A stretch of DNA of 64,000 nt. Source: Candidatus Desulfofervidus auxilii (GTDB lineage: Bacteria > Desulfobacterota > Desulfofervidia > Desulfofervidales > Desulfofervidaceae). A program made the translations under genes and the position numbers. Shown here in pieces: positions 21,792-38,789 of the stretch (the first letter of the stretch is position 1; every line of letters begins with the position of its first letter). Below the pieces are notes generated by a model, which worked only from the letters and a program-made list of their open reading frames with translations, did no database searches and was not told where the DNA came from. The stretch is from positions 1 through 64,000 of the forward strand of contig JAJSZS010000003.1 of the NCBI GenBank assembly GCA_030262725.1. The letters run 5' to 3'.

Positions 21792-22904
21792 ATGGGGAAA
21801 AACAACGTATTTTTCTTAGAGGTAATTGAGTGGTTTGATCCTACAGGCAAAGAAATTGTTCACCGGATTCCAGAAGAAGGATCAGGGGAAATTAAGCTTG
21901 GCGCTCAGTTAATTGTGCGAGACAATCAAGTTGCTGTCTTTTACTATAATGGGCGTGCTTATGACGCCATCGGTCCTGGGCGTCATACTTTATCCACAAA
22001 GAATATCCCTATCTTAACTAAAGTGTTAAGCCTGCCCTGGGGGTTTACAAGTCCCTTTCGGGCAGAAGTTTATTTTGTCAATATGAAAGTTTTTACTAAC
22101 CTGAAATGGGGAACAAGAGAACCTGTTGCTTTCAAAGACACAGAACTTGGGCTTGTGCGTCTTCGTACCTTTGGTATATTCAACATTCAGATATCCCAAC
22201 CAGTCTTGTTTATCAATAGTTTAGTAGGCACTCAAGGAGTCTACACTACCGAGGAAATAGAAAATTATCTCAGTCGAGTAATTGTTTCTCGCTTTAATGA
22301 CTATTTAGGTGAAAAACTAGATACAATTCTAAATTTACCAAGCAGGTATGACGAATTGTCACAAGGATTGCAGGAAAGATTAAAAGAGGATTTCTCACGT
22401 TATGGAATCCGCCTAGCTGGGCTTTATATCAATTCTATTACCCCACCTCCTGAAGTACAACAAGCCATTGATGACAGAGGACGTTTGGCTGTATTGGGAG
22501 ATTTGGATAGATTTATAAAAATGAAAGCAGGAATGGCAATGGAAGCCGCTGCTGAAGCTGGAGGAACCGCAGAAGGAGGTCTTGGGCTAGGGTTGGGATT
22601 AATGCTTCCGGGTTTTTTGATGGGAGCAATACAGGGTAAAACACAGACCACTTCACCTAATTGCCCTGAATGTCATCAGCCTGTACCTCAGGATGCTAGG
22701 TTTTGCCCTTTTTGTGGACATCAGTTAGTTATTATTCATAAATGTCAACATTGTGGTAAAAATTTACCTCCTAAAGCTGTTTTCTGCCCCCGTTGTGGTG
22801 CTCCTGTTGCTTCAAAACCTCATTCCATTAAGTGTCCTCATTGTGGAGCTGAAAATTTACCAGAAGCCATCTTTTGTAATTTCTGTGGTGAAAAATTAAA
22901 GTAA
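21792..22904 (+). CDS. SPFH/Band-7-like domain protein (PF13421-like, YdjI-like) with C-terminal tandem zinc ribbons
   Basis: N-terminus [60 protein letters not shown]. Gly-rich linker. Four C..C...C..C zinc-ribbon units at the C-terminus. Confidence 0.6.
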
Positions 22905-24226
22905 TGCAAACATGGCATATTCAAACACGCTGTCCTCAATGTGGAGCTCCGGTCTCTCTTACTGAAACGCAACGAGTGCTTCATTGTGAGTATTGTAAGA
23001 CAAGACTTTATTTACTACCTAAGGGTTTTCAGTGTTATCTTTTACCACCAAAAAAGCATAAAGATGAAATTCTTTTTATTCCCTTCTGGCGCATCAAAGG
23101 AATGAGCTTTGTTTGTAAAATGCCTTCTAAAATAGAAGCCAAAGTAATTGACAAAACCACTATTGCTCTGGATTTCCCTCTAGGTTTTACTTCTTTAGGT
23201 ATACGTCCTCAGGCAATAAACCTCGAATTTGCAGATGTAAAAAGAGGAATTTTTTTATCACCTCAGCTTAGTTTTAAAGAAGCATTACAAAAAATAAAAA
23301 CACGCTCAAAAAGTAATGCATTTCGTCTTTCTCATAGCAAAATGTCTTGTAATTATAAACAAAACATTCTAGCAATTTTGGGGAATGAAGAACATCCTTC
23401 TGTTACAGTTATTTTTCACTCTTTTATTGGTGAGGTATGGAGTCTTATTTATTTCCCTATTTTTATTGAGGAAAGCAGACAAAAAATTATTTTAAAAGAT
23501 GGACTGTCTAGGCAAAATATTGGGGATTTAACCTTAAAAGAATGGGAACAATTCAAAAAAAAGAAGGTTACTAGATTGCCTGCATGGCAATTTCTGCCCC
23601 TTATTTGTCCCCATTGTGGCTGGGACATCCCTTGCGATAAAGAAGCGTGGGCAGTATTCTGCCCCAATTGTAACCGAGGTTGGGGAGTTTTAAAAAACAA
23701 ATTTGTTCCTTTGCACTATAAGGTGGCTAAAACTGAAGGAAAAGATATATTTTACCTACCTTTTTGGCAAATTCGTGCTACTGCTTCTGCTCTTTCTTTA
23801 CATACCTATGCAGACTTGATTCGTTTTGCAAATTTGTCGAAAGTGATAAAAAGTAAACACCGAAAAATTCCTTTTTATTTTTATATCCCTGCCTTTAAAC
23901 TTAATCCTCATCAATTTTTAAAAATAGCCAAAACTCTTACACTAAACCAACCAGACTATGTTTATTTTTCTCAACCTGTTCCTAATGCCCATCCTGTAAT
24001 TTTACCACCAACAGAGGCATTAGAAGCGATAAAATTGGTAATGGCAGATATAGCTGTACCAAAGCGATATTTTTTCCCTCGACTGAAAGAAATAGAACCT
24101 AAAGTTACTCAAATTATCTTACTCTTTTTGCCTTTTGTTAAAAAAGGTATTGAATTAATCTTAGCTAATAAAGATATTAATTTGGCCATTCCTGTAAATG
24201 CTTTAAAATGGGGAAGTTTTTTATAA
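22904..24226 (+). CDS. Zinc-ribbon-containing protein of unknown function (YdjG-like partner of the SPFH protein?)
   Basis: CPQCGAPV...CEYCKTRLY and CPHCGWDIPCDKEAWAVFCPNCNRGW zinc ribbons. Start codon overlaps the upstream stop (ATGA-type coupling). Confidence 0.4.
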   Translation: MQTWHIQTRCPQCGAPVSLTETQRVLHCEYCKTRLYLLPKGFQCYLLPPKKHKDEILFIPFWRIKGMSFVCKMPSKIEAKVIDKTTIALDFPLGFTSLGIRPQAINLEFADVKRGIFLSPQLSFKEALQKIKTRSKSNAFRLSHSKMSCNYKQNILAILGNEEHPSVTVIFHSFIGEVWSLIYFPIFIEESRQKIILKDGLSRQNIGDLTLKEWEQFKKKKVTRLPAWQFLPLICPHCGWDIPCDKEAWAVFCPNCNRGWGVLKNKFVPLHYKVAKTEGKDIFYLPFWQIRATASALSLHTYADLIRFANLSKVIKSKHRKIPFYFYIPAFKLNPHQFLKIAKTLTLNQPDYVYFSQPVPNAHPVILPPTEALEAIKLVMADIAVPKRYFFPRLKEIEPKVTQIILLFLPFVKKGIELILANKDINLAIPVNALKWGSFL

Positions 24227-31769: not shown

Positions 31770-33512
31770 ATGTCTAAAGAACATTTACTTGAACTTATAA
31801 AAATAATCTCTACAGCCCTAGGAGATGATATAGGTTTAAAAATAAAGGCTGGGAAATGGTGGTCTTATGATTTTGAAAAGAATGAAATTACCTTTCCAGA
31901 AGAGTTCTTACTTAATTATTCTCCTGAACAGGTAATAGGTTTTTCCATTCATGAAGCAGGACACAGACAAATAACCCGCATTGATTTAAGAAAAGAAGAA
32001 TTTAAACTTTTTTATTCTAAAAATTCTTTTAAATTGCTTTTAAGTGTTTTTGAAGATGCAAGAGCAAACAATTGGATGATCTCTTTATTTCCAGGTGCAA
32101 ATTATTATTTAGGCATTATTTATGATGAGCTTGTACCAGAAGATTTAACAACATCTCAATATCTTAAAAGTTTGCAAAAAGAGATTAAAGTGCCTGATCT
32201 TCATCCTTATATATTATATCCTTATTTAGAATATATTTTAGGAGTCATATATTATTGGCGTTTTAAAAAACTGCCAATTATTATAAATCAAAAAGCAAAA
32301 CAAGCATTAAAAAAGACTTTTTCTTATTTTGATGAAATTTTTAATTGCCTTCCAAAAAAAGATGCTGGTGAAAAGGAAAGATTTGTCTCTGGATATAAAG
32401 CAGTACAACTGATAAAGCAATATATATTTGAAGAATATAAAAAACTTATCAAAGAAAGCATTGAAAATGTATCTAAGGCATTAAAAGAAAATCAAATAGA
32501 ATCAGGTGGGAATATTTCTCAAAAGGATTTATATGGTCAGGCAATTGGTTTTATAGAAGAAAAGGCAAAGGAGTTAGCAGAAAAACTTTCTCCTAAAATC
32601 CAAAGACCAGATGAAGGAAATATAGAAAGACAAATAGGCATTCCTTCAACATCTTTACCACAATCCTTTTCAGAATTAACATTTAAAGATTTTATTAAAG
32701 AAACTAAAAGATTAGAAAAATGCAGACAATCTATTTGTCCTTATGAGCAATTTTATAATCAAATAGGAAATATTATTCAGCATCTTACAGGTGTTTTAGA
32801 AAATTATTTTTTAAAAAATCGAAGACTTCGCTATCAGGGATATTTTAAATCTGGTCAAAGACCTGATTTAAGAAAGGTTATGAATCAATCTAGGAAGATA
32901 CAGGAAAAGATTCCATTAGAAAAGGATGATTTGGCTGTATTTTTAAGACGTAAATTACCAACAGAAAGAGAACATAGAATTGCTTTGGTATTAGATGAAT
33001 CTGGTTCTATGTCAGAGCCAAAAAGAAGTGCAGCTTTAGCTGGTCTTTTACTTTTTATAGAAAGTTTAGAACAACTTAATATAGATTATGCAGTTATTGG
33101 TTTTTCTGAAACAGTAATTGTCCACAAGGAATTTGGGAAAGGTCTTAGTAGGGCTGAAAGAGAAAATCTTTTTGAAGAAGTTTCTATGTATATTCCATCT
33201 GGGCTTACAGCAGATGCTGATGCCCTTGCTCTTGCTATAAAACTTATACTTGAAGCACCAGAAGATATTATTAAACTTATTATTATGATTAGTGATGGAG
33301 AGGGAAATATTAATCGGACAGGAAAAAGTTTTGCAGAGTTGCAAGAAGAGGCTTTTAAAAAAGATATAACAGTTGTTGGCATTGGCTTAGGAGAAAGGGC
33401 TAGTAGTGTGTTAAAAAGGTATCAATTACCTATTTTAGTAAAGGAAATAAAAGAATTGCCAAAAACTTTAGCCAAAGTTTTAGAGGAAAGGATTGTATTT
33501 GAATGTCAATAA
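31770..33512 (+). CDS. HExxH putative metallopeptidase-like N-domain fused to a C-terminal von Willebrand factor A (vWA) domain (DUF2201-like?)
   Basis: SIHEAGHRQ (HExxH). vWA MIDAS motif IALVLDESGSMSEP ... IGFSE ... MISDGEGN. Confidence 0.7.
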   Translation: MSKEHLLELIKIISTALGDDIGLKIKAGKWWSYDFEKNEITFPEEFLLNYSPEQVIGFSIHEAGHRQITRIDLRKEEFKLFYSKNSFKLLLSVFEDARANNWMISLFPGANYYLGIIYDELVPEDLTTSQYLKSLQKEIKVPDLHPYILYPYLEYILGVIYYWRFKKLPIIINQKAKQALKKTFSYFDEIFNCLPKKDAGEKERFVSGYKAVQLIKQYIFEEYKKLIKESIENVSKALKENQIESGGNISQKDLYGQAIGFIEEKAKELAEKLSPKIQRPDEGNIERQIGIPSTSLPQSFSELTFKDFIKETKRLEKCRQSICPYEQFYNQIGNIIQHLTGVLENYFLKNRRLRYQGYFKSGQRPDLRKVMNQSRKIQEKIPLEKDDLAVFLRRKLPTEREHRIALVLDESGSMSEPKRSAALAGLLLFIESLEQLNIDYAVIGFSETVIVHKEFGKGLSRAERENLFEEVSMYIPSGLTADADALALAIKLILEAPEDIIKLIIMISDGEGNINRTGKSFAELQEEAFKKDITVVGIGLGERASSVLKRYQLPILVKEIKELPKTLAKVLEERIVFECQ

Positions 33513-36500
33513 TATTTTAACTAGTGTTTATCTTTCTTTAAAGGAAAATTTTAATTTTAATTTAAGGCATCTTAAAAGGGCTTCTGAAGCACTGGGGATT
33601 CTTTTAAATAAAATTGAACCTAAAAAGGCATTAATTGAGGCTTTAAAATATGGATTTACACAAACTATTGAAGAGGAAAAAATTATACAAAATATTTTAA
33701 ATCATCCATTTATTAAAGACATTGATTTGAAAAGAGATGATTTTAAAATTCAATCAAATAATGTTATTCCTGAGAATCTTGGAGATTTAATAAAGATTAT
33801 CGCTGAATCAACTCATGATTCGGATTTAAAAGAAGTATTTTATCTCCTTACACGACTTATTAGCCATAAGGATAAATCAATAGCTATTCCTGCCTTAAAA
33901 ATAGCTTTTGAAGTTTTGAATGCCACAGATATAAGAGAATTAATTTTAGAAGAAATTGAAGATAATTTAAGAGAAGATTGGTTAAGCCGTAGAATGGCAG
34001 CATTAGCATTAGCAGAGATTTATGCCAGTTTTATTAAAAATGGGAAAATCAATTATCTTTCTAATCTAGAAAGATTAATGCAAAAAGAGGATTTACATAT
34101 CCAAGCTGTTGTTGCCCCTATTATTGCCTCTGTTTATGCCCATTTAATAGTTAATGGAAAAAGTAAATACATAAGTCTTTTAAAAGAGATGAGTAAAAAT
34201 AAAAATCAAGATATTGCTCAAGCAGCTTATAAAGCGCTTGAAATAGTATATTTAGAGGAAATTAATAGAGGGAAAATACCAGATTTAAAAGAGATAGAAT
34301 GTATAATAGAAAATAGTGAAATTACATGGCAAATAATGGCTGTTAATACTTTAGCCCCTATTTATACTGCCCTTATTAAAAAAGGAAAGTATATTGATTT
34401 TGGAAGACTTGAAGAATTACTTAAAAGCCGTTATGGAGGATTAAAAGATGTTGTTGTGCGAGCTTTGGGAAAAATCTATTTAGCTCTTATTCAAATAGGG
34501 AAAGAACCAGAATTATCTAATTTAGAAATTATGCTTTCTGCTGATGATTGGCGTATACGATTAAGTACTGCAAATGTCCTTGGACGTCTTTATGGAGAAT
34601 TAGTAAAAAGAGGGAAAAAACCTCCTCTTGAAAAACTTGAAGCCCTTTTTAAAGATAGACATGGTTCGGTACGCAAAGCAGCTGCTGAAGCCATAGCTAA
34701 TGTATATTTGAAGTTTATTGAGAAAGGTGATAAGAGTGGTCTGAAAAGATTGGAAAAAATGCTTTATAAAGAAAATTGGTTACTTGCTAGAGTTGTTTCT
34801 ATCTCTTTAGCAAATATTTATTCCTTTCTTATACAAAAAGGTGAAATGCAATATTTGCCAAAACTTGAAAGGATGCTTGAAGGAGATGATTTTTACGTAA
34901 ATATTGTAACTATATCTTCTTTGGCTACAGTTTATATAAAGCTTATTGAAGATGGAAGGATTCCTCAATTAGAAAAATTAGAAAATATGTTATTTCATGA
35001 AGACCTTTATATCCGTATAGCCGCAGCCTCTTCCTTAGCTAGTGTTTATTCTAGTTTAATTTTAAAAGGACATAAAGAATATTTGGAAGATTTAGAAGAG
35101 ATGCTAAGTGGGGAGTGGTATACAAAAAAGGCTGCAGCTACTGTTCTTGTGAATACTTATGCCCATCTTATTGCACAAGGGGAAAGGCAATATTTAAGAG
35201 AGCTTGAAAGAATGATTGAAGCAAAAGATATAGATATAATTCAAGCAGTATCAAAAGTTTTAGGAAATGTTATTAAAAATATAGTTAAAGATAAAAAAGA
35301 AAAGCTTGATATAGCATTAGCTAAAATAGAATTGCTTTTAGAGCAAAAACTTTCTTCTCCTTTAAAAGGAAGTCTTTCTTCAGAAATAGAAATAACTCAA
35401 GAAAAAGTAAGAATAGGTTGTCTTGAATTAGAAAGGAAAAATTCCTTTCCACTCCCTGTCTGTGTATTTACTGAAAGTTCTTTTGAAATATTAAAAACCA
35501 TTTCTTTAGGCTATCTTTTAAACCATCCTGTTCTGTTATTAGGTCCAACTTCTACTGGTAAAAGTTTTCTTATTAAATGGCTTGCAAATCTTTTAGGTTA
35601 TGAACACATTTCTTATACTTTAAATCCATATTCTTCTAAATTTGAACTTATTGGAGGTATAAAGCCAGATAAAGAAGGAAAATTCATTTGGCAAGATGGT
35701 ATCATTTTAAAGGCAGTTAAAGAGGGAAAATGGCTTGTTCTTGAGGAAATAAATCTTGCTTCCTCAGATGTAATAGAAATATTAAATGACTATCTTACTA
35801 CTGGTAAATTCTTTTATTCTGAAAATGGACAGCAAAAAGAAATCATACCTCATCCTGATTTTCGTCTTTTTGCTACAGCCAATCCAGAAAGCTATAGTCA
35901 AAGACAGCGCCTTTCAGAAGTATTCTTATCTCGTTGGAAGATTTATTATCAAAAAGAACTCTCTGAATCAGAGATTGCTGAAATATTGAGCAGTTTATTT
36001 CAAATCCCAGCATCTCTTTCCCTTTTAATAGCTAGATTTCATAAAACTGTAGAGAAACAATCCCAAGCCCGTTTAATTGGTAAAGAAGAAAAAGACCCTT
36101 ATATTTATTCTTTAAGAGATATTTTAAGACTTGGAAAAAGATTAAAAAATAAAGACTTAAATTCTCTTAAAGATTTATTCCTTGAGCTCTATATTGTTTA
36201 TTTGGCTAGGATAAGAAATAAAACAGAAAGAGATGCACTTATTGCTTCTTTAGATGCCCATTTTGGCTTTAGAGCAAAAGGATTAAAATTAAAAGAAATT
36301 ATAGAAGAACAAAAAGAAAATCTTGATTTAAAAATTGAAAAGATTCAAGTAACAAATGGAGATGAATTTATTCCTAAAAAAGAGGCAGAAATTATTCCTA
36401 CATATTCACAAAAAGTTCTTCTTTCTCAAATTGTTTCAGCAATAATTCAAGCTGAGCCTGTTTTATTGGTTGGTATGCCTGCTTCTGGAAAAACTACACT

Positions 36501-36933
36501 TATTCGTTATCTTGCAAGAGAAAAGAAAACCAATCTTTTTTATGTAAACCTTTCTTCAGATACAGGATTGGAGGAACTTCTAGGTGGATATATGCAGGAT
36601 AAAACAGGAAAATGGTATTATAAAAAAGGATTGCTTTTTAGAGCAATTGAAGAGGGAAGTTGGTTGTTAATCGATGAAGCAAATTTAAATCCCCTTTCTG
36701 AGTATTTGAATACATTAATTGATTTTGGCTATATTATTGATGAAGAGGGAAAGATTCACAGAGCCCATCCTAATTTTAGGTTATTTTTAGCTATAAATCC
36801 ACCTAAAATTCATGCTTCAAGAAATGTACTTTCTCCTTCCTTAAGGAGCAGATTTTTAGAAATCTGGATAGAGGAAGTCTTAAAAGAAGAAGAATTAGAA
36901 GAGTTAGTAAAAAGATGGGCAACAAGAACATAA
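33493..36933 (+). CDS. 1146-aa protein with about 12 tandem ~38-aa HEAT/PBS-lyase-like repeats followed by two AAA_5 (MoxR/dynein/midasin-like) ATPase domains
   Basis: Repeat unit ..LE.ML...D..IR.AAA.SLA.VY..LI.KG...YL. First Walker A LLGPTSTGKSF with Walker B LVLEEINLA. Second Walker A LVGMPASGKTT with Walker B LLIDEANLN. Overlaps the upstream vWA gene by 20 nt. Confidence 0.75.
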   Translation: MYLNVNNILTSVYLSLKENFNFNLRHLKRASEALGILLNKIEPKKALIEALKYGFTQTIEEEKIIQNILNHPFIKDIDLKRDDFKIQSNNVIPENLGDLIKIIAESTHDSDLKEVFYLLTRLISHKDKSIAIPALKIAFEVLNATDIRELILEEIEDNLREDWLSRRMAALALAEIYASFIKNGKINYLSNLERLMQKEDLHIQAVVAPIIASVYAHLIVNGKSKYISLLKEMSKNKNQDIAQAAYKALEIVYLEEINRGKIPDLKEIECIIENSEITWQIMAVNTLAPIYTALIKKGKYIDFGRLEELLKSRYGGLKDVVVRALGKIYLALIQIGKEPELSNLEIMLSADDWRIRLSTANVLGRLYGELVKRGKKPPLEKLEALFKDRHGSVRKAAAEAIANVYLKFIEKGDKSGLKRLEKMLYKENWLLARVVSISLANIYSFLIQKGEMQYLPKLERMLEGDDFYVNIVTISSLATVYIKLIEDGRIPQLEKLENMLFHEDLYIRIAAASSLASVYSSLILKGHKEYLEDLEEMLSGEWYTKKAAATVLVNTYAHLIAQGERQYLRELERMIEAKDIDIIQAVSKVLGNVIKNIVKDKKEKLDIALAKIELLLEQKLSSPLKGSLSSEIEITQEKVRIGCLELERKNSFPLPVCVFTESSFEILKTISLGYLLNHPVLLLGPTSTGKSFLIKWLANLLGYEHISYTLNPYSSKFELIGGIKPDKEGKFIWQDGIILKAVKEGKWLVLEEINLASSDVIEILNDYLTTGKFFYSENGQQKEIIPHPDFRLFATANPESYSQRQRLSEVFLSRWKIYYQKELSESEIAEILSSLFQIPASLSLLIARFHKTVEKQSQARLIGKEEKDPYIYSLRDILRLGKRLKNKDLNSLKDLFLELYIVYLARIRNKTERDALIASLDAHFGFRAKGLKLKEIIEEQKENLDLKIEKIQVTNGDEFIPKKEAEIIPTYSQKVLLSQIVSAIIQAEPVLLVGMPASGKTTLIRYLAREKKTNLFYVNLSSDTGLEELLGGYMQDKTGKWYYKKGLLFRAIEEGSWLLIDEANLNPLSEYLNTLIDFGYIIDEEGKIHRAHPNFRLFLAINPPKIHASRNVLSPSLRSRFLEIWIEEVLKEEELEELVKRWATRT

Positions 36934-37472
36934 ATAGTATTTTTAAATGAATCAGTAATTGCATTTATCTCCACTTTAAACCCTCTTTTTTTTGCAAGAG
37001 AAATAAGAGGAGTAAAATCAAATTCTTCCTTACCATAAATAATTTTTTGTATATAGTAATATAAACTGCCGTAGGGCATTTTTACCCAAGGTAAACAAAT
37101 AAATTTACCTTCTTTTTTTAATACCCGTTTTATCTCATCCCAAAATTCTGATTTGAAAATAAAAGCTGTAGGAAAACCAGAAAATATTAATGAAAAACTA
37201 TTTTCTTTAAAAGGCAATGCTTCTGCCTTAGCCTGAATAAAATATGTCTTGCTTTTCTTAGCATATTTCAACATAGAAAAAGACAAATCTATAGCAACAT
37301 CTATTTTTGATAGCCAACCTGCGGTTCCTATCTCTAAACTAAGTCCTTTAGGAGCAAATTTTAAAGCATTAATTTGCCAAATAATCCACTTTTTACCAAA
37401 AATAAGAGAGATTAAAGGTCGATATAAAAAAGCTAATGGGCCATAAAATAATTTAAAAAATCGATAAAGCAT
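36810..37472 (-). CDS. Class I SAM-dependent methyltransferase (Methyltransf_11-like)
   Basis: Motif I LEIGTAG and motif post-II AEALPFKENSFSLIF. Its 3' end overlaps the convergent gene by 124 bp. Confidence 0.65.
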   Translation of the reverse strand: MLYRFFKLFYGPLAFLYRPLISLIFGKKWIIWQINALKFAPKGLSLEIGTAGWLSKIDVAIDLSFSMLKYAKKSKTYFIQAKAEALPFKENSFSLIFSGFPTAFIFKSEFWDEIKRVLKKEGKFICLPWVKMPYGSLYYYIQKIIYGKEEFDFTPLISLAKKRGFKVEINAITDSFKNTIYVLVAHLFTNSSNSSSFKTSSIQISKNLLLKEGESTFLEA

Positions 37473-37784: not shown

Positions 37785-38164
37785 TTAAATCAATTTGTTT
37801 TCACCAAATAGCCTTTGCTGATATGGTCTTCTTACCACAATTAGCCTAAATGCTCTCTTTGTCTTTTCCACACAATGTAGTGTCTCGGCAATATGTCTAT
37901 TTTCGTATGGTCTCCATCCATCTTCTTTTATAGACAAAATCGCTTCTTTGACTGCTCTATCTATATGAGCACCTATGGCATATTTTATCCTCTTTTGTTC
38001 ACAATAATTAAATATCTCTGCTTGATATGATGCCGCATCTGCCCTTAAATATCCTATCCTTTTGCCTTTAGGGATTTGCCTTTCACAGTATTTTATAAAC
38101 TCCAAGTTTTTGGCTACCCTAAACCCTTTAATCCTTCTCCTTCGCCCATCCGTCTTAACCAGCT
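37785..38164 (-). pseudogene. DDE transposase C-terminal fragment (IS1380/IS4-like remnant)
   Basis: ...KGFRVAKNLEFIKYCERQIPKGKRIGYLRADAASYQAEIFNYCEQKRIKYAIGAHIDRAVKEAI...RRPYQQ. Only about 125 aa are open, bounded by an upstream in-frame stop. The nearby ORF 38155-38472 is unrelated or frameshifted. Confidence 0.5.
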
Positions 38165-38789
38165 ATAAAAGGCATCACTTGAGGAATTCTCTCTATGCAT
38201 AATAATTCTCTTAAACCTTCATCTACTTTGATAATTGGAATAGTAATGTACCTTAGATGGTTTATAGATATCCTTAAGTGACATACATCTTCTCGACTTT
38301 TTTGACACTTTGTATTATGGCTTAAAGTAAAAGGCAGTAATTGAAAGTTTGGAAAAACTGCGGGGTAAATATAATGGTTAAAGACATAGTAGAAATAATC
38401 ATTCTTGCTTGTTTCTTTGTCTGGCTCGTGTGGTACGGAGAAAAAAACATAAAAAAGCTTTCTCAAAGGCATAAAGAAAGTAGGGTATAAGGAAGAACGG
38501 AAATGTTTGAAACTCCGACGCTCATTTTCGGTATCGTTGGTGTAATTATTGCTATTGTGGGATGTTTGGTGTATGTGGTGAGGGGTGGAGAGGAGAAGTC
38601 TATTTCAAATTATCACGAGTTTTCCTGTGATTATGATATATATGGATGGATGAAATATTCTTATAGTTAGGAACCCTGGCTTTCAACAAAATTTGCCTTA
38701 TATCGTGATCTGATAAGTCTAAAAATCTTCGTGCATCTTACCTTTGAATAAAGTTATTTCAAAAGATTGTCAAGAAAATAGTTTGTAGC

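What the first reader, a model, noticed from the sequence alone, without database searches (positions are those of the whole stretch)
31770..36933. Two-gene cassette: HExxH+vWA protein and a HEAT-repeat protein with tandem AAA_5 ATPase domains (a split midasin-like architecture)
Gene 1 carries a HEAGH motif (putative metallopeptidase-like N-domain) and a C-terminal vWA domain with MIDAS residues. Gene 2 overlaps it by 20 nt. It encodes about 560 aa of HEAT-like repeats followed by two complete MoxR/dynein-class AAA_5 modules, each with Walker A and Walker B. MoxR-vWA pairs are known chaperone or remodelling systems. Some vWA-MoxR systems have been proposed to act in conflict or immunity. A double AAA_5 with a long solenoid N-terminus is unusual for bacteria and recalls eukaryotic midasin/Rea1 (AAA ring plus MIDAS). 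This is a candidate novel ATP-driven system with a metalloprotease-like partner.
Basis: partly seen in the sequence, partly recalled or inferred. Interest (0 to 1): 0.7.

Follow-up and report, generated by a model that had tools for sequence, protein, structure and literature searches.

The report
Bacterial two-gene midasin-like ATPase machine
Two overlapping genes in a Desulfofervidus-like bacterium encode a small, split prokaryotic relative of midasin, the giant eukaryotic ribosome-assembly motor; relatives elsewhere fuse the same parts into one chain, which suggests how midasin's six-part ring could be built from two-part units.

Summary
Gene 1 (31770-33512) has an HExxH N-domain and a C-terminal VWA domain with a full MIDAS motif. 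Gene 2 (33493-36933, likely start 33499) has about twelve 38-aa HEAT repeats, then AAA_5, a midasin-type lid (Pfam AAA_lid_7) and a second AAA_5. Both ATP sites look intact, but the second AAA module has no lid.

Among solved structures both proteins match midasin/Rea1 best (gene 2 E 3e-133; CbbQ/NorQ/CobS about 1e-8). The pair is obligatory: adjacent or fused in every locus with upstream DNA. It is rare (43 of 185,579 species genomes: Desulfofervidaceae, Syntrophales, methanogen-type archaea) and shares no neighbour gene across lineages. It has no defence-library, plasmid or phage match.

Bacterial giant proteins join three gene-2-like units and one gene-1-like module in a single chain.

Best reading: three gene-2 protomers form a six-AAA ring that works a MIDAS/zincin-like partner on an unknown substrate.

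The link to eukaryotic midasin rests on the lid, the tandem architecture and the MIDAS domain. Deep domain phylogeny is unresolved, and single-domain CbbQ/CobS-type proteins are about as close per AAA core.

Verdict: new variant of a known kind; function unknown; evolutionarily interesting.

The parts
31770..33512 (+). Gene 1: 580-aa partner protein (zincin-like N-domain, linker, VWA/MIDAS domain)
   Evidence: ORF; translation; 98% identical to P0023, which NCBI names 'VWA domain-containing protein [Candidatus Desulfofervidus auxilii]'. Found directly upstream of, or fused to, the HEAT-AAA gene in every locus that has upstream DNA.
31770..32594 (+). N-domain, aa 1-275: a 3-stranded sheet, an HExxH helix and a helix carrying E95/D96. 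Probable zincin-like metal site.
31950..31964 (+). HEAGH motif (aa 61-65)
32049..32063 (+). FEDAR motif (aa 94-98). E95 is the candidate third metal ligand, 30 residues after H65.
   Evidence: The ligand role is inferred, not shown.
32595..32978 (+). Charged linker and conserved pre-VWA element (aa 276-403), including GQRPDLRK (aa 362-369, nt 32853-32876)
   Evidence: Low pLDDT in the isolated model. G362 is invariant. This segment aligns with the stretch just before the MIDAS domain of midasin (6qt8 residues 32-105) and with Pfam VWA_CoxE.
32979..33509 (+). VWA domain (aa 404-580) with MIDAS residues D409/S411/S413 (nt 32994-33008), T480 (33207-33209) and D509 (33294-33296)
   Evidence: Pfam VWA and VWA_2. 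With the family profile, the best PDB hits are the midasin MIDAS domain 6qt8 (E 4.6e-17) and CobT (E 1.3e-16). The MIDAS residues are conserved in 39-40 of 40 modules.
33484..33512 (+). Gene junction: Shine-Dalgarno-like GGAAAGGA (33484-33491), in-frame TTG codons at 33493 and 33499, gene 1 stop at 33510-33512. Implies translational coupling.
   Evidence: Sequence. The 1144-aa length of P0001 fits a start at 33499.
33493..36933 (+). Gene 2: 1146-aa (probably 1144-aa) protein with HEAT repeats, AAA_5, a midasin-type lid and a second AAA_5
33493..35355 (+). Helical N-terminal cap and about twelve 38-aa HEAT-like repeats (aa 1-621)
   Evidence: Pfam HEAT_2 and HEAT. PDB hits to alphaRep designs. 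AF2 helical pairs at model residues 94-619 with pLDDT about 90. 38-aa periodicity.
35473..35949 (+). AAA module D1, large domain (aa 661-819): Walker A 35542-35565, H2-insert ELIGGIKPD 35644-35670, Walker B 35734-35754, sensor-1 FATANP 35869-35886
   Evidence: Pfam AAA_5 at aa 679-814. Invariant motif residues. Coordinates verified.
35965..36342 (+). Lid (small subdomain) of D1, midasin type (aa 825-950)
   Evidence: Pfam AAA_lid_7 at aa 827-925, E 5.6e-13. My own lid HMM hits only after odd-numbered AAA modules, both in the bacterial giants and in eukaryotic midasins. The HH alignment covers the lid only with midasin.
36403..36870 (+). AAA module D2, large domain (aa 971-1126): Walker A 36472-36495, H2-insert ELLGGYMQD 36574-36600, Walker B 36664-36684, sensor-1 FLAINP 36784-36801. 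No lid follows it.

Best explanation
The cassette encodes a self-contained, two-component AAA+/MIDAS remodelling machine of the midasin type.

Shown by the sequence:
- The genes overlap and are probably translationally coupled.
- Both AAA_5 modules of gene 2 keep Walker A, Walker B, sensor-1 and arginine residues.
- Gene 1 keeps a complete MIDAS metal site and an invariant HExxH...ED site.

Inferred:
- Three gene-2 protomers form one planar ring of six AAA_5 modules alternating D1, D2, as in midasin, where all six modules are in one chain. The HEAT solenoids project outward as substrate or adaptor platforms.
- The VWA domain of gene 1 docks on the ring through its pre-VWA element and/or C-terminus, as NorD does on NorQ and the MIDAS domain does on the midasin ring.
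- The MIDAS Mg2+ captures an acidic side chain of a target protein. ATP hydrolysis around the ring then pulls or twists that target.
- The zincin-like N-domain holds or cleaves the engaged polypeptide. This step is the most speculative.

The substrate is unknown. In evolutionary terms, the D1-lid-D2 unit looks like the building block that was concatenated three times in bacterial giant proteins, independently in at least two lineages, and perhaps also in the ancestor of eukaryotic midasin.
For: Domain content and intact motifs.

Similarity to midasin:
- phmmer of gene 2 against the PDB gives 449 bits (E 3e-133) over 7 stretches, against 34-38 bits for CbbQ, CobS and NorQ.
- The AAA part alone aligns continuously through D1, the lid and the start of D2 onto AAA1>2, AAA3>4 and AAA5>6 of yeast Rea1.
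- HH alignment of the tandem unit covers about 465 of 485 columns with every adjacent midasin pair: score 380-422 in the 1-2/3-4/5-6 register, 333-390 in the 2-3/4-5 register.
- The D1+lid profile scores 270, 234 and 198 with AAA3, AAA5 and AAA1 plus their lids, and 192 and 169 with AAA2 and AAA4. With a CbbQ_C-type protein it covers the core and part of the lid (141). With NorQ it covers only the core (104).
- The gene 1 profile hits the midasin MIDAS domain best, including about 80 residues before the domain.

Obligate partnership: in every locus that has upstream DNA (38 of the 46 related loci; the other eight are cut at the contig end), the gene-1 module lies directly upstream or is fused in frame. 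One divergent pair has the reversed order.

Ring of three:
- P0041 (4471 aa, bacterial contig) consists of three internal units of about 1150 aa, 62-66% identical to each other. Each unit is a spacer followed by D1-lid-D2. One complete gene-1-like module follows (435 bits).
- P0050 has the same plan.
- D1 groups with the giants' odd modules at 97.5% bootstrap, and D2 with their even modules at 94.5%.

Docking model: NorQD cryo-EM and its discussion of the midasin MIDAS loop (PMC13036017).

No client operon.
Against: - No experiment and no multimer model supports the trimer. Tandem-AAA proteins of other clades form stacked double hexamers.
- D2 lacks a lid, so its ATP site may not be closed in the usual way.
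- Stoichiometry is inconsistent: 3 tandem units to 1 partner module in the giants, but 1:1 in the fused Syntrophales proteins.
- Per AAA core, the family is no closer to midasin modules (35-104 bits) than to a CbbQ_C-type single-domain protein (78-80 bits) or to phage CobS-like phrog_249 (147 bits over two cores).
- The backbone of the domain tree is unresolved. The odd/even split has 20-35% bootstrap, and the split between outgroups and ingroup has 28%.
- Nothing indicates the substrate.
Confidence: 0.6

Rival explanations
1. An ordinary MoxR-class AAA_5/VWA maturation chaperone (NorQD, CbbQO, CoxDE or CobST type). It would insert a metal into, or reactivate, one dedicated enzyme that happens to be encoded elsewhere in the genome.
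For: - The VWA domain matches CobT (E 1.3e-16) almost as well as it matches midasin.
- Pfam CobT_C and VWA_CoxE, NCBIfam CobS and GvpN, and phage CobS-like phrog_249 all give partial hits.
- A CbbQ_C-type single-domain protein is as close per AAA core as midasin modules are.
- In 17 Syntrophales loci a DUF4213/DUF364 gene (Pfam: putative heavy-metal chelation) overlaps the 3' end of the fused gene.
Against: - No client or metabolic gene is shared between lineages. Four Desulfofervidaceae genomes carry the pair in four different contexts.
- The DUF364 gene has no homologue in the window.
- The lid, the tandem AAA arrangement, the roughly 620-aa HEAT arm and the invariant HExxH domain are absent from NorQD, CbbQO and CobST.
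- All NCBIfam hits lie far below the family cut-offs, for example CobS 36 bits against 558.
Confidence: 0.2
2. A conflict or anti-phage system in the style of the MoxR-vWA ternary systems. The HEAT arm would sense an invader, the AAA ring would transduce the signal, and the HExxH peptidase would act as effector.
For: - The distribution is patchy, spans bacteria and archaea, and the AAA part is about 60% identical across that divide, which implies horizontal transfer.
- Transposase remnants lie nearby in the window (37785-38472) and in L004.
- Published MoxR-vWA conflict systems do fuse peptidases and HEAT or TPR repeats to vWA proteins (PMC7159879).
- A distant HExxH-VWA + AAA_5 pair sits on a mobile-looking contig with a diversity-generating retroelement.
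Against: - PADLOC gives nothing for gene 1 and only generic P-loop hits for gene 2.
- No third component of the VMAP, beta-propeller or FtsH type is present.
- Neighbours are housekeeping genes.
- No relative was found in IMG/VR, PLSDB or the phage collection.
- The sequence is strongly conserved rather than diversifying.
Confidence: 0.08
3. A new ATP-dependent protease built like a type-II unfoldase. Six gene-2 protomers would stack a D1 ring on a D2 ring and thread substrates to the zincin domain of gene 1.
For: - Tandem AAA modules, each with an intact ATP site.
- An invariant HExxH...E site in the obligate partner.
- AAA+ rings are repeatedly paired with peptidases in prokaryotes, as discussed in PMC3495828.
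Against: - In the closest relatives, consecutive AAA_5 modules sit side by side in one ring (midasin).
- The single-chain bacterial versions carry exactly three tandem units.
- D2 has no lid.
- MoxR-class and midasin-class rings are not known to thread substrates; the partner's finger occupies the pore.
Confidence: 0.1

Closest known systems
Midasin / Rea1 / Mdn1 (eukaryotic pre-60S ribosome remodelling AAA+ protein)
   Same: - AAA_5 modules joined in one chain through a midasin-type lid (Pfam AAA_lid_7).
- End-to-end alignment of D1-lid-D2 with each adjacent pair of midasin modules at about 29% identity.
- A MIDAS-bearing VWA domain, preceded by the same conserved pre-VWA segment, as the substrate-binding element.
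- A helical region N-terminal to the AAA modules.
- Midasin is the best PDB match for both proteins.
   Different: - Two AAA modules per chain, not six.
- The second module has no lid.
- The MIDAS domain is on a separate protein, or fused N-terminally in Syntrophales, rather than at the far C-terminus.
- No linker or D/E-rich region is present.
- The partner carries an HExxH domain that midasin lacks.
- The host is prokaryotic, and no Rsa4/Ytm1-type UBL ligands are known.
Uncharacterised bacterial giant proteins (P0041 4471 aa; P0050 4005 aa; P0049, P0190 and P0053 6700-7600 aa)
   Same: They use the same D1-lid-D2 unit (38-42% identity to the window protein) and the same HExxH + VWA module (435 bits for P0041). 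D1 and D2 cluster with the giants' odd and even modules at 95-97% bootstrap.
   Different: Three tandem units and the partner module are joined in one polypeptide, with the partner at the C-terminus. The spacers are TPR or other repeats rather than the 38-aa HEAT array. No name or publication was found for them.
NorQ/NorD and CbbQ/CbbO (CGN subfamily of MoxR AAA+ ATPases with VWA partners)
   Same: AAA_5 core with an H2 insert; an adjacent partner with a C-terminal VWA/MIDAS domain; a likely docking mode with the VWA domain sitting on the ring.
   Different: - They have a single AAA module per chain, which forms homohexamers.
- They carry a CbbQ_C-type lid.
- They have no HEAT arm and no HExxH domain.
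- They are encoded next to their client enzyme (NOR, Rubisco), which is not the case here.
CobS/CobT (aerobic cobaltochelatase subunits and their phage homologues)
   Same: CobT is the second-best PDB match for the VWA domain (E 1.3e-16). CobS-type models hit both AAA cores.
   Different: No CobN partner is present. The scores lie far below the family cut-offs. The tandem AAA arrangement, the midasin-type lid, the HEAT arm and the HExxH domain are all absent from CobST.
MoxR-vWA ternary conflict systems (Kaur, Burroughs, Iyer, Aravind 2020; PMC7159879)
   Same: A MoxR-class ATPase with a vWA protein. vWA proteins in those systems can be fused to peptidases and to HEAT or TPR repeats. There is a weak Pfam bpMoxR hit.
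   Different: No third component (VMAP, beta-propeller or FtsH). The ATPase here is tandem with a midasin-type lid. The context is not a defence island.

Membership tests
Midasin/Rea1 family | AAA modules of the AAA_5 (dynein-related) type, with best sequence similarity to midasin | tested here: met
   Pfam AAA_5 x2, E 1.1e-39. PDB phmmer gives midasin E 3e-133 against CbbQ 5e-9. Caveat: per core, CbbQ_C-type and phage CobS-type proteins score similarly.
Midasin/Rea1 family | Midasin-type lid between consecutive AAA modules | tested here: met
   AAA_lid_7 at aa 827-925, E 5.6e-13, cut-off 22.7 bits, score 49.5. HH alignment covers the lid with all five midasin lids tested. This holds for D1 only; D2 has no lid.
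Midasin/Rea1 family | Six AAA modules in one polypeptide forming the ring | tested here: not met
   Two modules per chain. A six-module ring from three chains is inferred only.
Midasin/Rea1 family | C-terminal MIDAS domain on the same chain, preceded by a linker and a D/E-rich region | tested here: not met
   The MIDAS domain is present and is the best PDB match, but it lies on a separate upstream gene. No window of 40 residues reaches 30% D+E.
Midasin/Rea1 family | Acts on pre-60S particles through UBL domains of Rsa4/Ytm1 | not testable with these tools
   This is a eukaryote-specific function. No prokaryotic ligand is known.
MoxR-class AAA+ / VWA two-component chaperones (NorQD, CbbQO, CoxDE, CobST) | AAA_5/MoxR ATPase encoded next to a protein with a C-terminal VWA domain bearing a MIDAS motif | tested here: met
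MoxR-class AAA+ / VWA two-component chaperones (NorQD, CbbQO, CoxDE, CobST) | Single AAA module per protomer (homohexamer) with the family-specific C-terminal lid (e.g. CbbQ_C) | tested here: not met
   Tandem modules. No CbbQ_C hit; AAA_lid_7 is found instead.
MoxR-class AAA+ / VWA two-component chaperones (NorQD, CbbQO, CoxDE, CobST) | Conserved linkage to a client enzyme operon (nor, cbb, cox, cobN, gvp) | tested here: not met
   No neighbour family is shared across lineages in 47 loci. Neighbours in the window are ruvABC, yebC, ftsJ, ppiD, a methyltransferase and hisB/hisF.
Zincin (HExxH) metallopeptidases, gluzincin type | HExxH on a helix plus a downstream Glu as third ligand | tested here: met
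   H61, E62, H65 and E95 are identical in 40 of 40 modules. HExxH lies on helix 52-68, after a 3-stranded sheet.
Zincin (HExxH) metallopeptidases, gluzincin type | Recognisable zincin fold or family membership | tested here: inconclusive
Known anti-phage defence systems (PADLOC-DB 2.0) | Match to a defence-system protein model | tested here: not met
   Gene 1: no hit. Gene 2: only partial P-loop hits (mad8 34 bits, RtcR, BrxF).
MoxR-vWA ternary conflict systems | Third core component (VMAP, beta-propeller or FtsH-like) in the operon | tested here: not met
   No third gene is conserved across lineages.

The most novel reading that the evidence does not exclude
This family is a surviving prokaryotic relative of the midasin ancestor. 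Under this reading, the functional ring is a trimer of D1-lid-D2 chains. Bacteria have repeatedly welded three such chains and the MIDAS partner into single giant proteins. Eukaryotic midasin arose the same way: its odd-numbered modules descend from D1 and its even-numbered modules from D2, and the partner's zincin domain was lost. Midasin's six-module ring would then have a prokaryotic, two-module origin, not a de novo six-fold duplication of a MoxR gene in early eukaryotes.
Probability: 0.3. Interest if true: 0.85.

Novelty: new variant of a known kind. Interest (0 to 1): 0.62.

Why it matters
Midasin and dynein are the only well-known proteins that carry a whole six-module AAA+ ring on one chain. 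The papers I could read treat both as eukaryotic inventions derived from single-module MoxR ATPases (PMC3495828, PMC13036017).

This cassette differs. It is small (2 + 1 domains) and expressible. It comes from a thermophile-associated bacterium. It has a midasin-type lid, a tandem module and an obligate MIDAS partner, and it has natural single-chain trimer versions in other bacteria.

It therefore offers two things:
- a tractable model for how a MIDAS domain is driven by an AAA_5 ring;
- a concrete, testable intermediate for the origin of the midasin ring.

It also adds an unrecognised, invariant HExxH domain to the repertoire of AAA-coupled VWA partners.

Tried and rejected
1. Metabolic-operon test. 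Gene neighbourhoods in 47 loci were clustered. Only lineage-specific synteny appeared (Syntrophales: DUF4213/DUF364; archaea: a 185-aa ORF plus a transglutaminase-core gene). None of these has a homologue in the window.

2. Defence reading. PADLOC, PHROGs, IMG/VR, PLSDB and INPHARED gave nothing specific.

4. D1 = odd, D2 = even mapping onto eukaryotic midasin.
- HMM scores of the cores do not discriminate.
- Di-domain HMM scores do not discriminate.
- The NJ tree shows the split but with only 20-35% bootstrap. With outgroups the backbone is below 30%.
- Only the lid evidence and the HH scores lean that way.
- I therefore do not claim the mapping is shown.

5. D/E-rich linker as in midasin: not present. 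The archaeal partners are longer because of an N-terminal extension.

6. A HEAT-part HMM built from alignment A1 was contaminated by the partner portion of the fused sequences and was discarded.

7. The promoter and terminator scan gave no more sites than shuffled sequence.

8. The third word-indexed protein search, run with a profile of AAA cores, returned mostly short fragments.

10. Literature. No held paper describes prokaryotic tandem midasin-type proteins. Garbarino & Gibbons 2002 was requested but is not held. Iyer et al. 2004 was not read either, so prior mention cannot be excluded.


Full report
**What is in the sequence**

The window has 29-31% G+C around the finding. It carries two same-strand ORFs at exactly the stated coordinates:
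- gene 1, 31770-33512, 580 aa;
- gene 2, 33493-36933, 1146 aa from the first in-frame TTG.

A Shine-Dalgarno-like GGAAAGGA (33484-33491) sits 7 nt before a second TTG at 33499. A start there gives 1144 aa, the length of the 98%-identical database protein P0001, and a 14-nt overlap. Either start implies translational coupling.

The nearest database proteins are named Candidatus Desulfofervidus auxilii (P0023, 98% identity).

The flanking genes are housekeeping:
- upstream, on the other strand: ruvB, ruvA, ruvC, yebC, ftsJ and a ppiD-like gene;
- downstream: a methyltransferase-like ORF, transposase fragments, then hisB, hisF and purM-like genes.

**Gene 1**

Pfam finds only the C-terminal VWA domain (aa 404-548, E 2.9e-9), with weaker VWA_CoxE and CobT_C hits.

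The N-terminal 392 residues match no Pfam family even at E < 10, in any of nine family members.

An AF2 model of this part (mean pLDDT 70.8; highest, about 80-95, over aa 80-270) shows:
- a three-stranded sheet (aa 24-43);
- a helix carrying HEAGH (aa 52-68);
- further helices, one ending just before E95/D96.

Conservation is striking. I collected 40 gene-1-like modules: split, fused, reversed-order and embedded in giant proteins. H61, E62, H65, E95, D96 and R98 are identical in all 40. The MIDAS residues D409, S411, S413 and D509 are also identical in all 40, and T480 in 39.

With the family profile, the best solved-structure matches are the MIDAS domain of midasin (6qt8, E 4.6e-17) and CobT (E 1.3e-16). 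The midasin alignment starts about 80 residues before the first VWA strand. It covers the conserved, model-disordered segment that contains G362-Q-R-P-D-L-R-K.

**Gene 2**

AF2 (pLDDT 80.6) gives the following layout, in model numbering, which starts at the TTG at 33499 and so runs 2 below gene numbering:
- a helical cap and a regular solenoid to residue 619;
- a short beta element;
- AAA large domain D1 (659-817);
- a helical lid (823-948);
- AAA large domain D2 (969-1124);
- one terminal helix.

The solenoid repeat is 38 aa long.

Pfam calls AAA_5 twice, and calls AAA_lid_7 ('Midasin AAA lid') for the lid at E 5.6e-13.

Walker A, Walker B, sensor-1 and arginine residues of both modules are invariant in 15 homologues. 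D2 has no lid in any member, which remains unexplained.

**Relatives and distribution**

The word-indexed search found only 22 relatives of gene 2 and 18 of gene 1.

A pattern scan of one genome for each of 185,579 species found 43 true loci:
- Desulfofervidaceae;
- Syntrophales/Syntrophaceae;
- Methanomicrobia-, Halobacteriota- or 'Euryarchaeota'-labelled MAGs from fens and bogs;
- single Bathyarchaeia, Planctomycetia and Acidiferrales bins.

Because the scan required near-exact peptide patterns, 43 is a lower bound.

In every locus where upstream DNA is present, the gene-1 module is immediately upstream. This is the arrangement in Desulfofervidaceae and most archaea. In all Syntrophales, some archaeal bins, and the Acidiferrales and Planctomycetia bins, it is fused in frame N-terminal to the HEAT-AAA part, giving proteins of about 1800 aa.

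A more divergent pair has the opposite gene order (L055).

No third gene is shared across lineages. Four Desulfofervidaceae genomes hold the pair in four unrelated contexts.

PADLOC, IMG/VR, PLSDB and the phage collection give nothing specific.

**Relation to midasin**

phmmer of gene 2 against all PDB sequences gives midasin/Rea1/Mdn1 at E about 3e-133 (449 bits, 7 stretches). CbbQ, CobS and NorQ reach only about 1e-8.

With the AAA part alone, three long alignments run from D1 through the lid into D2. They fall on AAA1>2, AAA3>4 and AAA5>6 of yeast Rea1.

Profile-profile alignment of the family's D1-lid-D2 unit covers about 465 of 485 columns with every adjacent pair of midasin modules, at probability 100% and about 29% identity.

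The exhaustive HMMER search of 1.84 billion representatives found 869 proteins at E < 1e-30. The order was the family itself, then a handful of giant proteins, then eukaryotic midasins at 400-470 bits.

**An important caution**

A midasin accumulates score from six modules, so these totals overstate its closeness. Per AAA core, with my D1 and D2 HMMs, the scores are:

| Target | Bits |
|---|---|
| Eukaryotic AAA3 | 80-104 |
| Other eukaryotic modules | 13-81 (mostly 30-80) |
| Single-domain CbbQ_C-type protein P0196 | 78-80 |
| NorQ P0209 | 44-50 |

Phage CobS-like phrog_249 scores 147 bits over the two cores.

So the AAA core alone places the family in the CbbQ/NorQ/CobS/midasin region of AAA_5. 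It does not place it uniquely with midasin.

Four features are specific to midasin:
- the lid (Pfam AAA_lid_7), which HH alignment extends through fully only with midasin;
- the covalent tandem arrangement;
- the MIDAS domain with its pre-VWA segment;
- the giant proteins described next.

**The giants**

P0041 (4471 aa) lies on a 512-kb contig among folD, metF, PTS-EIIA and polysaccharide-export genes.
- It consists of three internal units of about 1150 aa, the size of gene 2, that are 62-66% identical to each other.
- Each unit ends in D1-lid-D2.
- One complete gene-1-like module follows (435 bits, with HExxH and DxSxS present).
- Sources.

P0050 (4005 aa) is labelled Thermoproteota, but its neighbours are LpxB, a ClpC-like gene and RadA. 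It has the same plan.

P0049, P0190 and P0053 (6700-7600 aa) also end in the gene-1-like module. P0190 is on a bacterial contig.

In a neighbour-joining tree of 73 AAA cores:
- family D1 groups with the odd modules of P0041 and P0047 (97.5% bootstrap);
- family D2 groups with their even modules (94.5%);
- the three units of each giant cluster with each other. The triplications are therefore lineage-specific fusions of a two-module unit, not reductions of a eukaryotic gene.

This is the main support for a ring made of three gene-2 chains serving one partner module.

**Does D1 equal odd and D2 equal even in eukaryotic midasin?**

In favour:
- The best NJ tree says so.
- The family lid HMM hits only after odd modules: after AAA3 9-20 bits and after AAA5 3-28 bits, against 3 bits or less after AAA2 and AAA4.
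- HH scores favour the 1-2/3-4/5-6 register (mean 400 against 361).
- HH scores favour odd modules for D1 plus lid (270, 234 and 198 against 192 and 169).

Against:
- Bootstrap for the odd/even split is only 20-35%.
- With outgroups, the backbone of the tree is below 30%.

I rate this mapping as suggestive, not shown.

**Mechanism**

By homology with NorQD, the VWA partner should sit on the ring. In NorQD a VWA finger enters the AAA pore and the VWA C-terminus binds the post-sensor-1 loop. The authors of that study relate the arrangement to the MIDAS loop of midasin (PMC13036017).

In the proposed mechanism the partner presents its MIDAS ion to an acidic residue of a target, and ATP turnover pulls or twists that target. 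The invariant HExxH...ED site suggests that the partner also binds a metal and may cleave the target. The HEAT arm is a likely substrate or adaptor platform.

Nothing identifies the substrate.

**Novelty**

The held literature describes MoxR as the closest prokaryotic relative of the midasin and dynein modules. It describes the six-module chain as an early eukaryotic invention (PMC3495828).

I found no paper on prokaryotic tandem or six-module midasin-type proteins. Two key older papers were not read: Garbarino & Gibbons 2002 is not held, and Iyer et al. 2004 was not looked up.

Database names are generic: 'AAA family ATPase', 'HEAT repeat domain-containing protein', 'VWA domain-containing protein'.

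I file the system as a new variant of a known kind: an AAA_5/VWA remodeller of the midasin type.

Noticed in passing
window 36810-37472 (- strand) versus gene 2 3' end 36810-36933: A 220-aa methyltransferase-like ORF (Pfam Methyltransf_11 at aa 58-125) converges on gene 2 and overlaps its last 124 nt. Its C-terminal 40 residues are the antisense reading of the conserved gene 2 C-terminus, so its real end may lie earlier or it may be decaying.
   Followed up: partly
window 37785-38105 and 38155-38472 (- strand): Two short ORFs lie here, one with a partial DDE_Tnp_1_4 transposase hit (E 1e-5). They are probably remnants of an insertion sequence, sitting between the cassette and hisB.
   Followed up: no
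L052 6001-19416 (P0041); L057 212-12229 (P0050); L056 8001-30779 (P0190): Bacterial giant proteins of 4000-7600 aa carry six AAA_5 modules, midasin-type lids and a C-terminal HExxH + VWA module, that is, a full 'prokaryotic midasin' architecture. P0050 is labelled Thermoproteota, but its contig carries LpxB, ClpC-like and RadA genes and looks bacterial.
   Followed up: partly
L053 7001-13287: A distant HExxH + VWA protein (P0037, 25% identity) lies next to a single-module AAA_5 protein (649 aa). The contig also carries a diversity-generating retroelement (bAvd + reverse transcriptase), ParB, NikA-like and FtsK/TrwB-like genes, so it looks like a mobile element.
   Followed up: partly
L004 15370-16137 and 16 other Syntrophales loci: A DUF4213/DUF364 gene (Pfam: putative heavy-metal chelation) overlaps the stop codon of the fused VWA-HEAT-AAA gene in all 17 Syntrophales-type loci. 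In most of them a thioesterase, an acetyltransferase and MobB follow. No homologue is present in the window.
   Followed up: partly
L001 14058-15804 and 16 other archaeal loci: Downstream of the archaeal pairs lie a conserved 185-aa ORF with no Pfam hit and a convergent transglutaminase-core gene. This recalls the MoxR-vWA-transglutaminase operons discussed in PMC3495828, but it may be only lineage synteny.
   Followed up: partly
window 22904-24226 (+ strand): A 440-aa ORF has no Pfam family apart from a marginal zinc-ribbon hit at its N-terminus. G+C is locally higher here (0.37).
   Followed up: no
L001 7432-10014, L009 5312-7918 (archaeal gene 1 homologues): The archaeal partners are about 260 aa longer than the bacterial ones because of an N-terminal extension with no counterpart in the window protein. 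Its nature was not examined.
   Followed up: no
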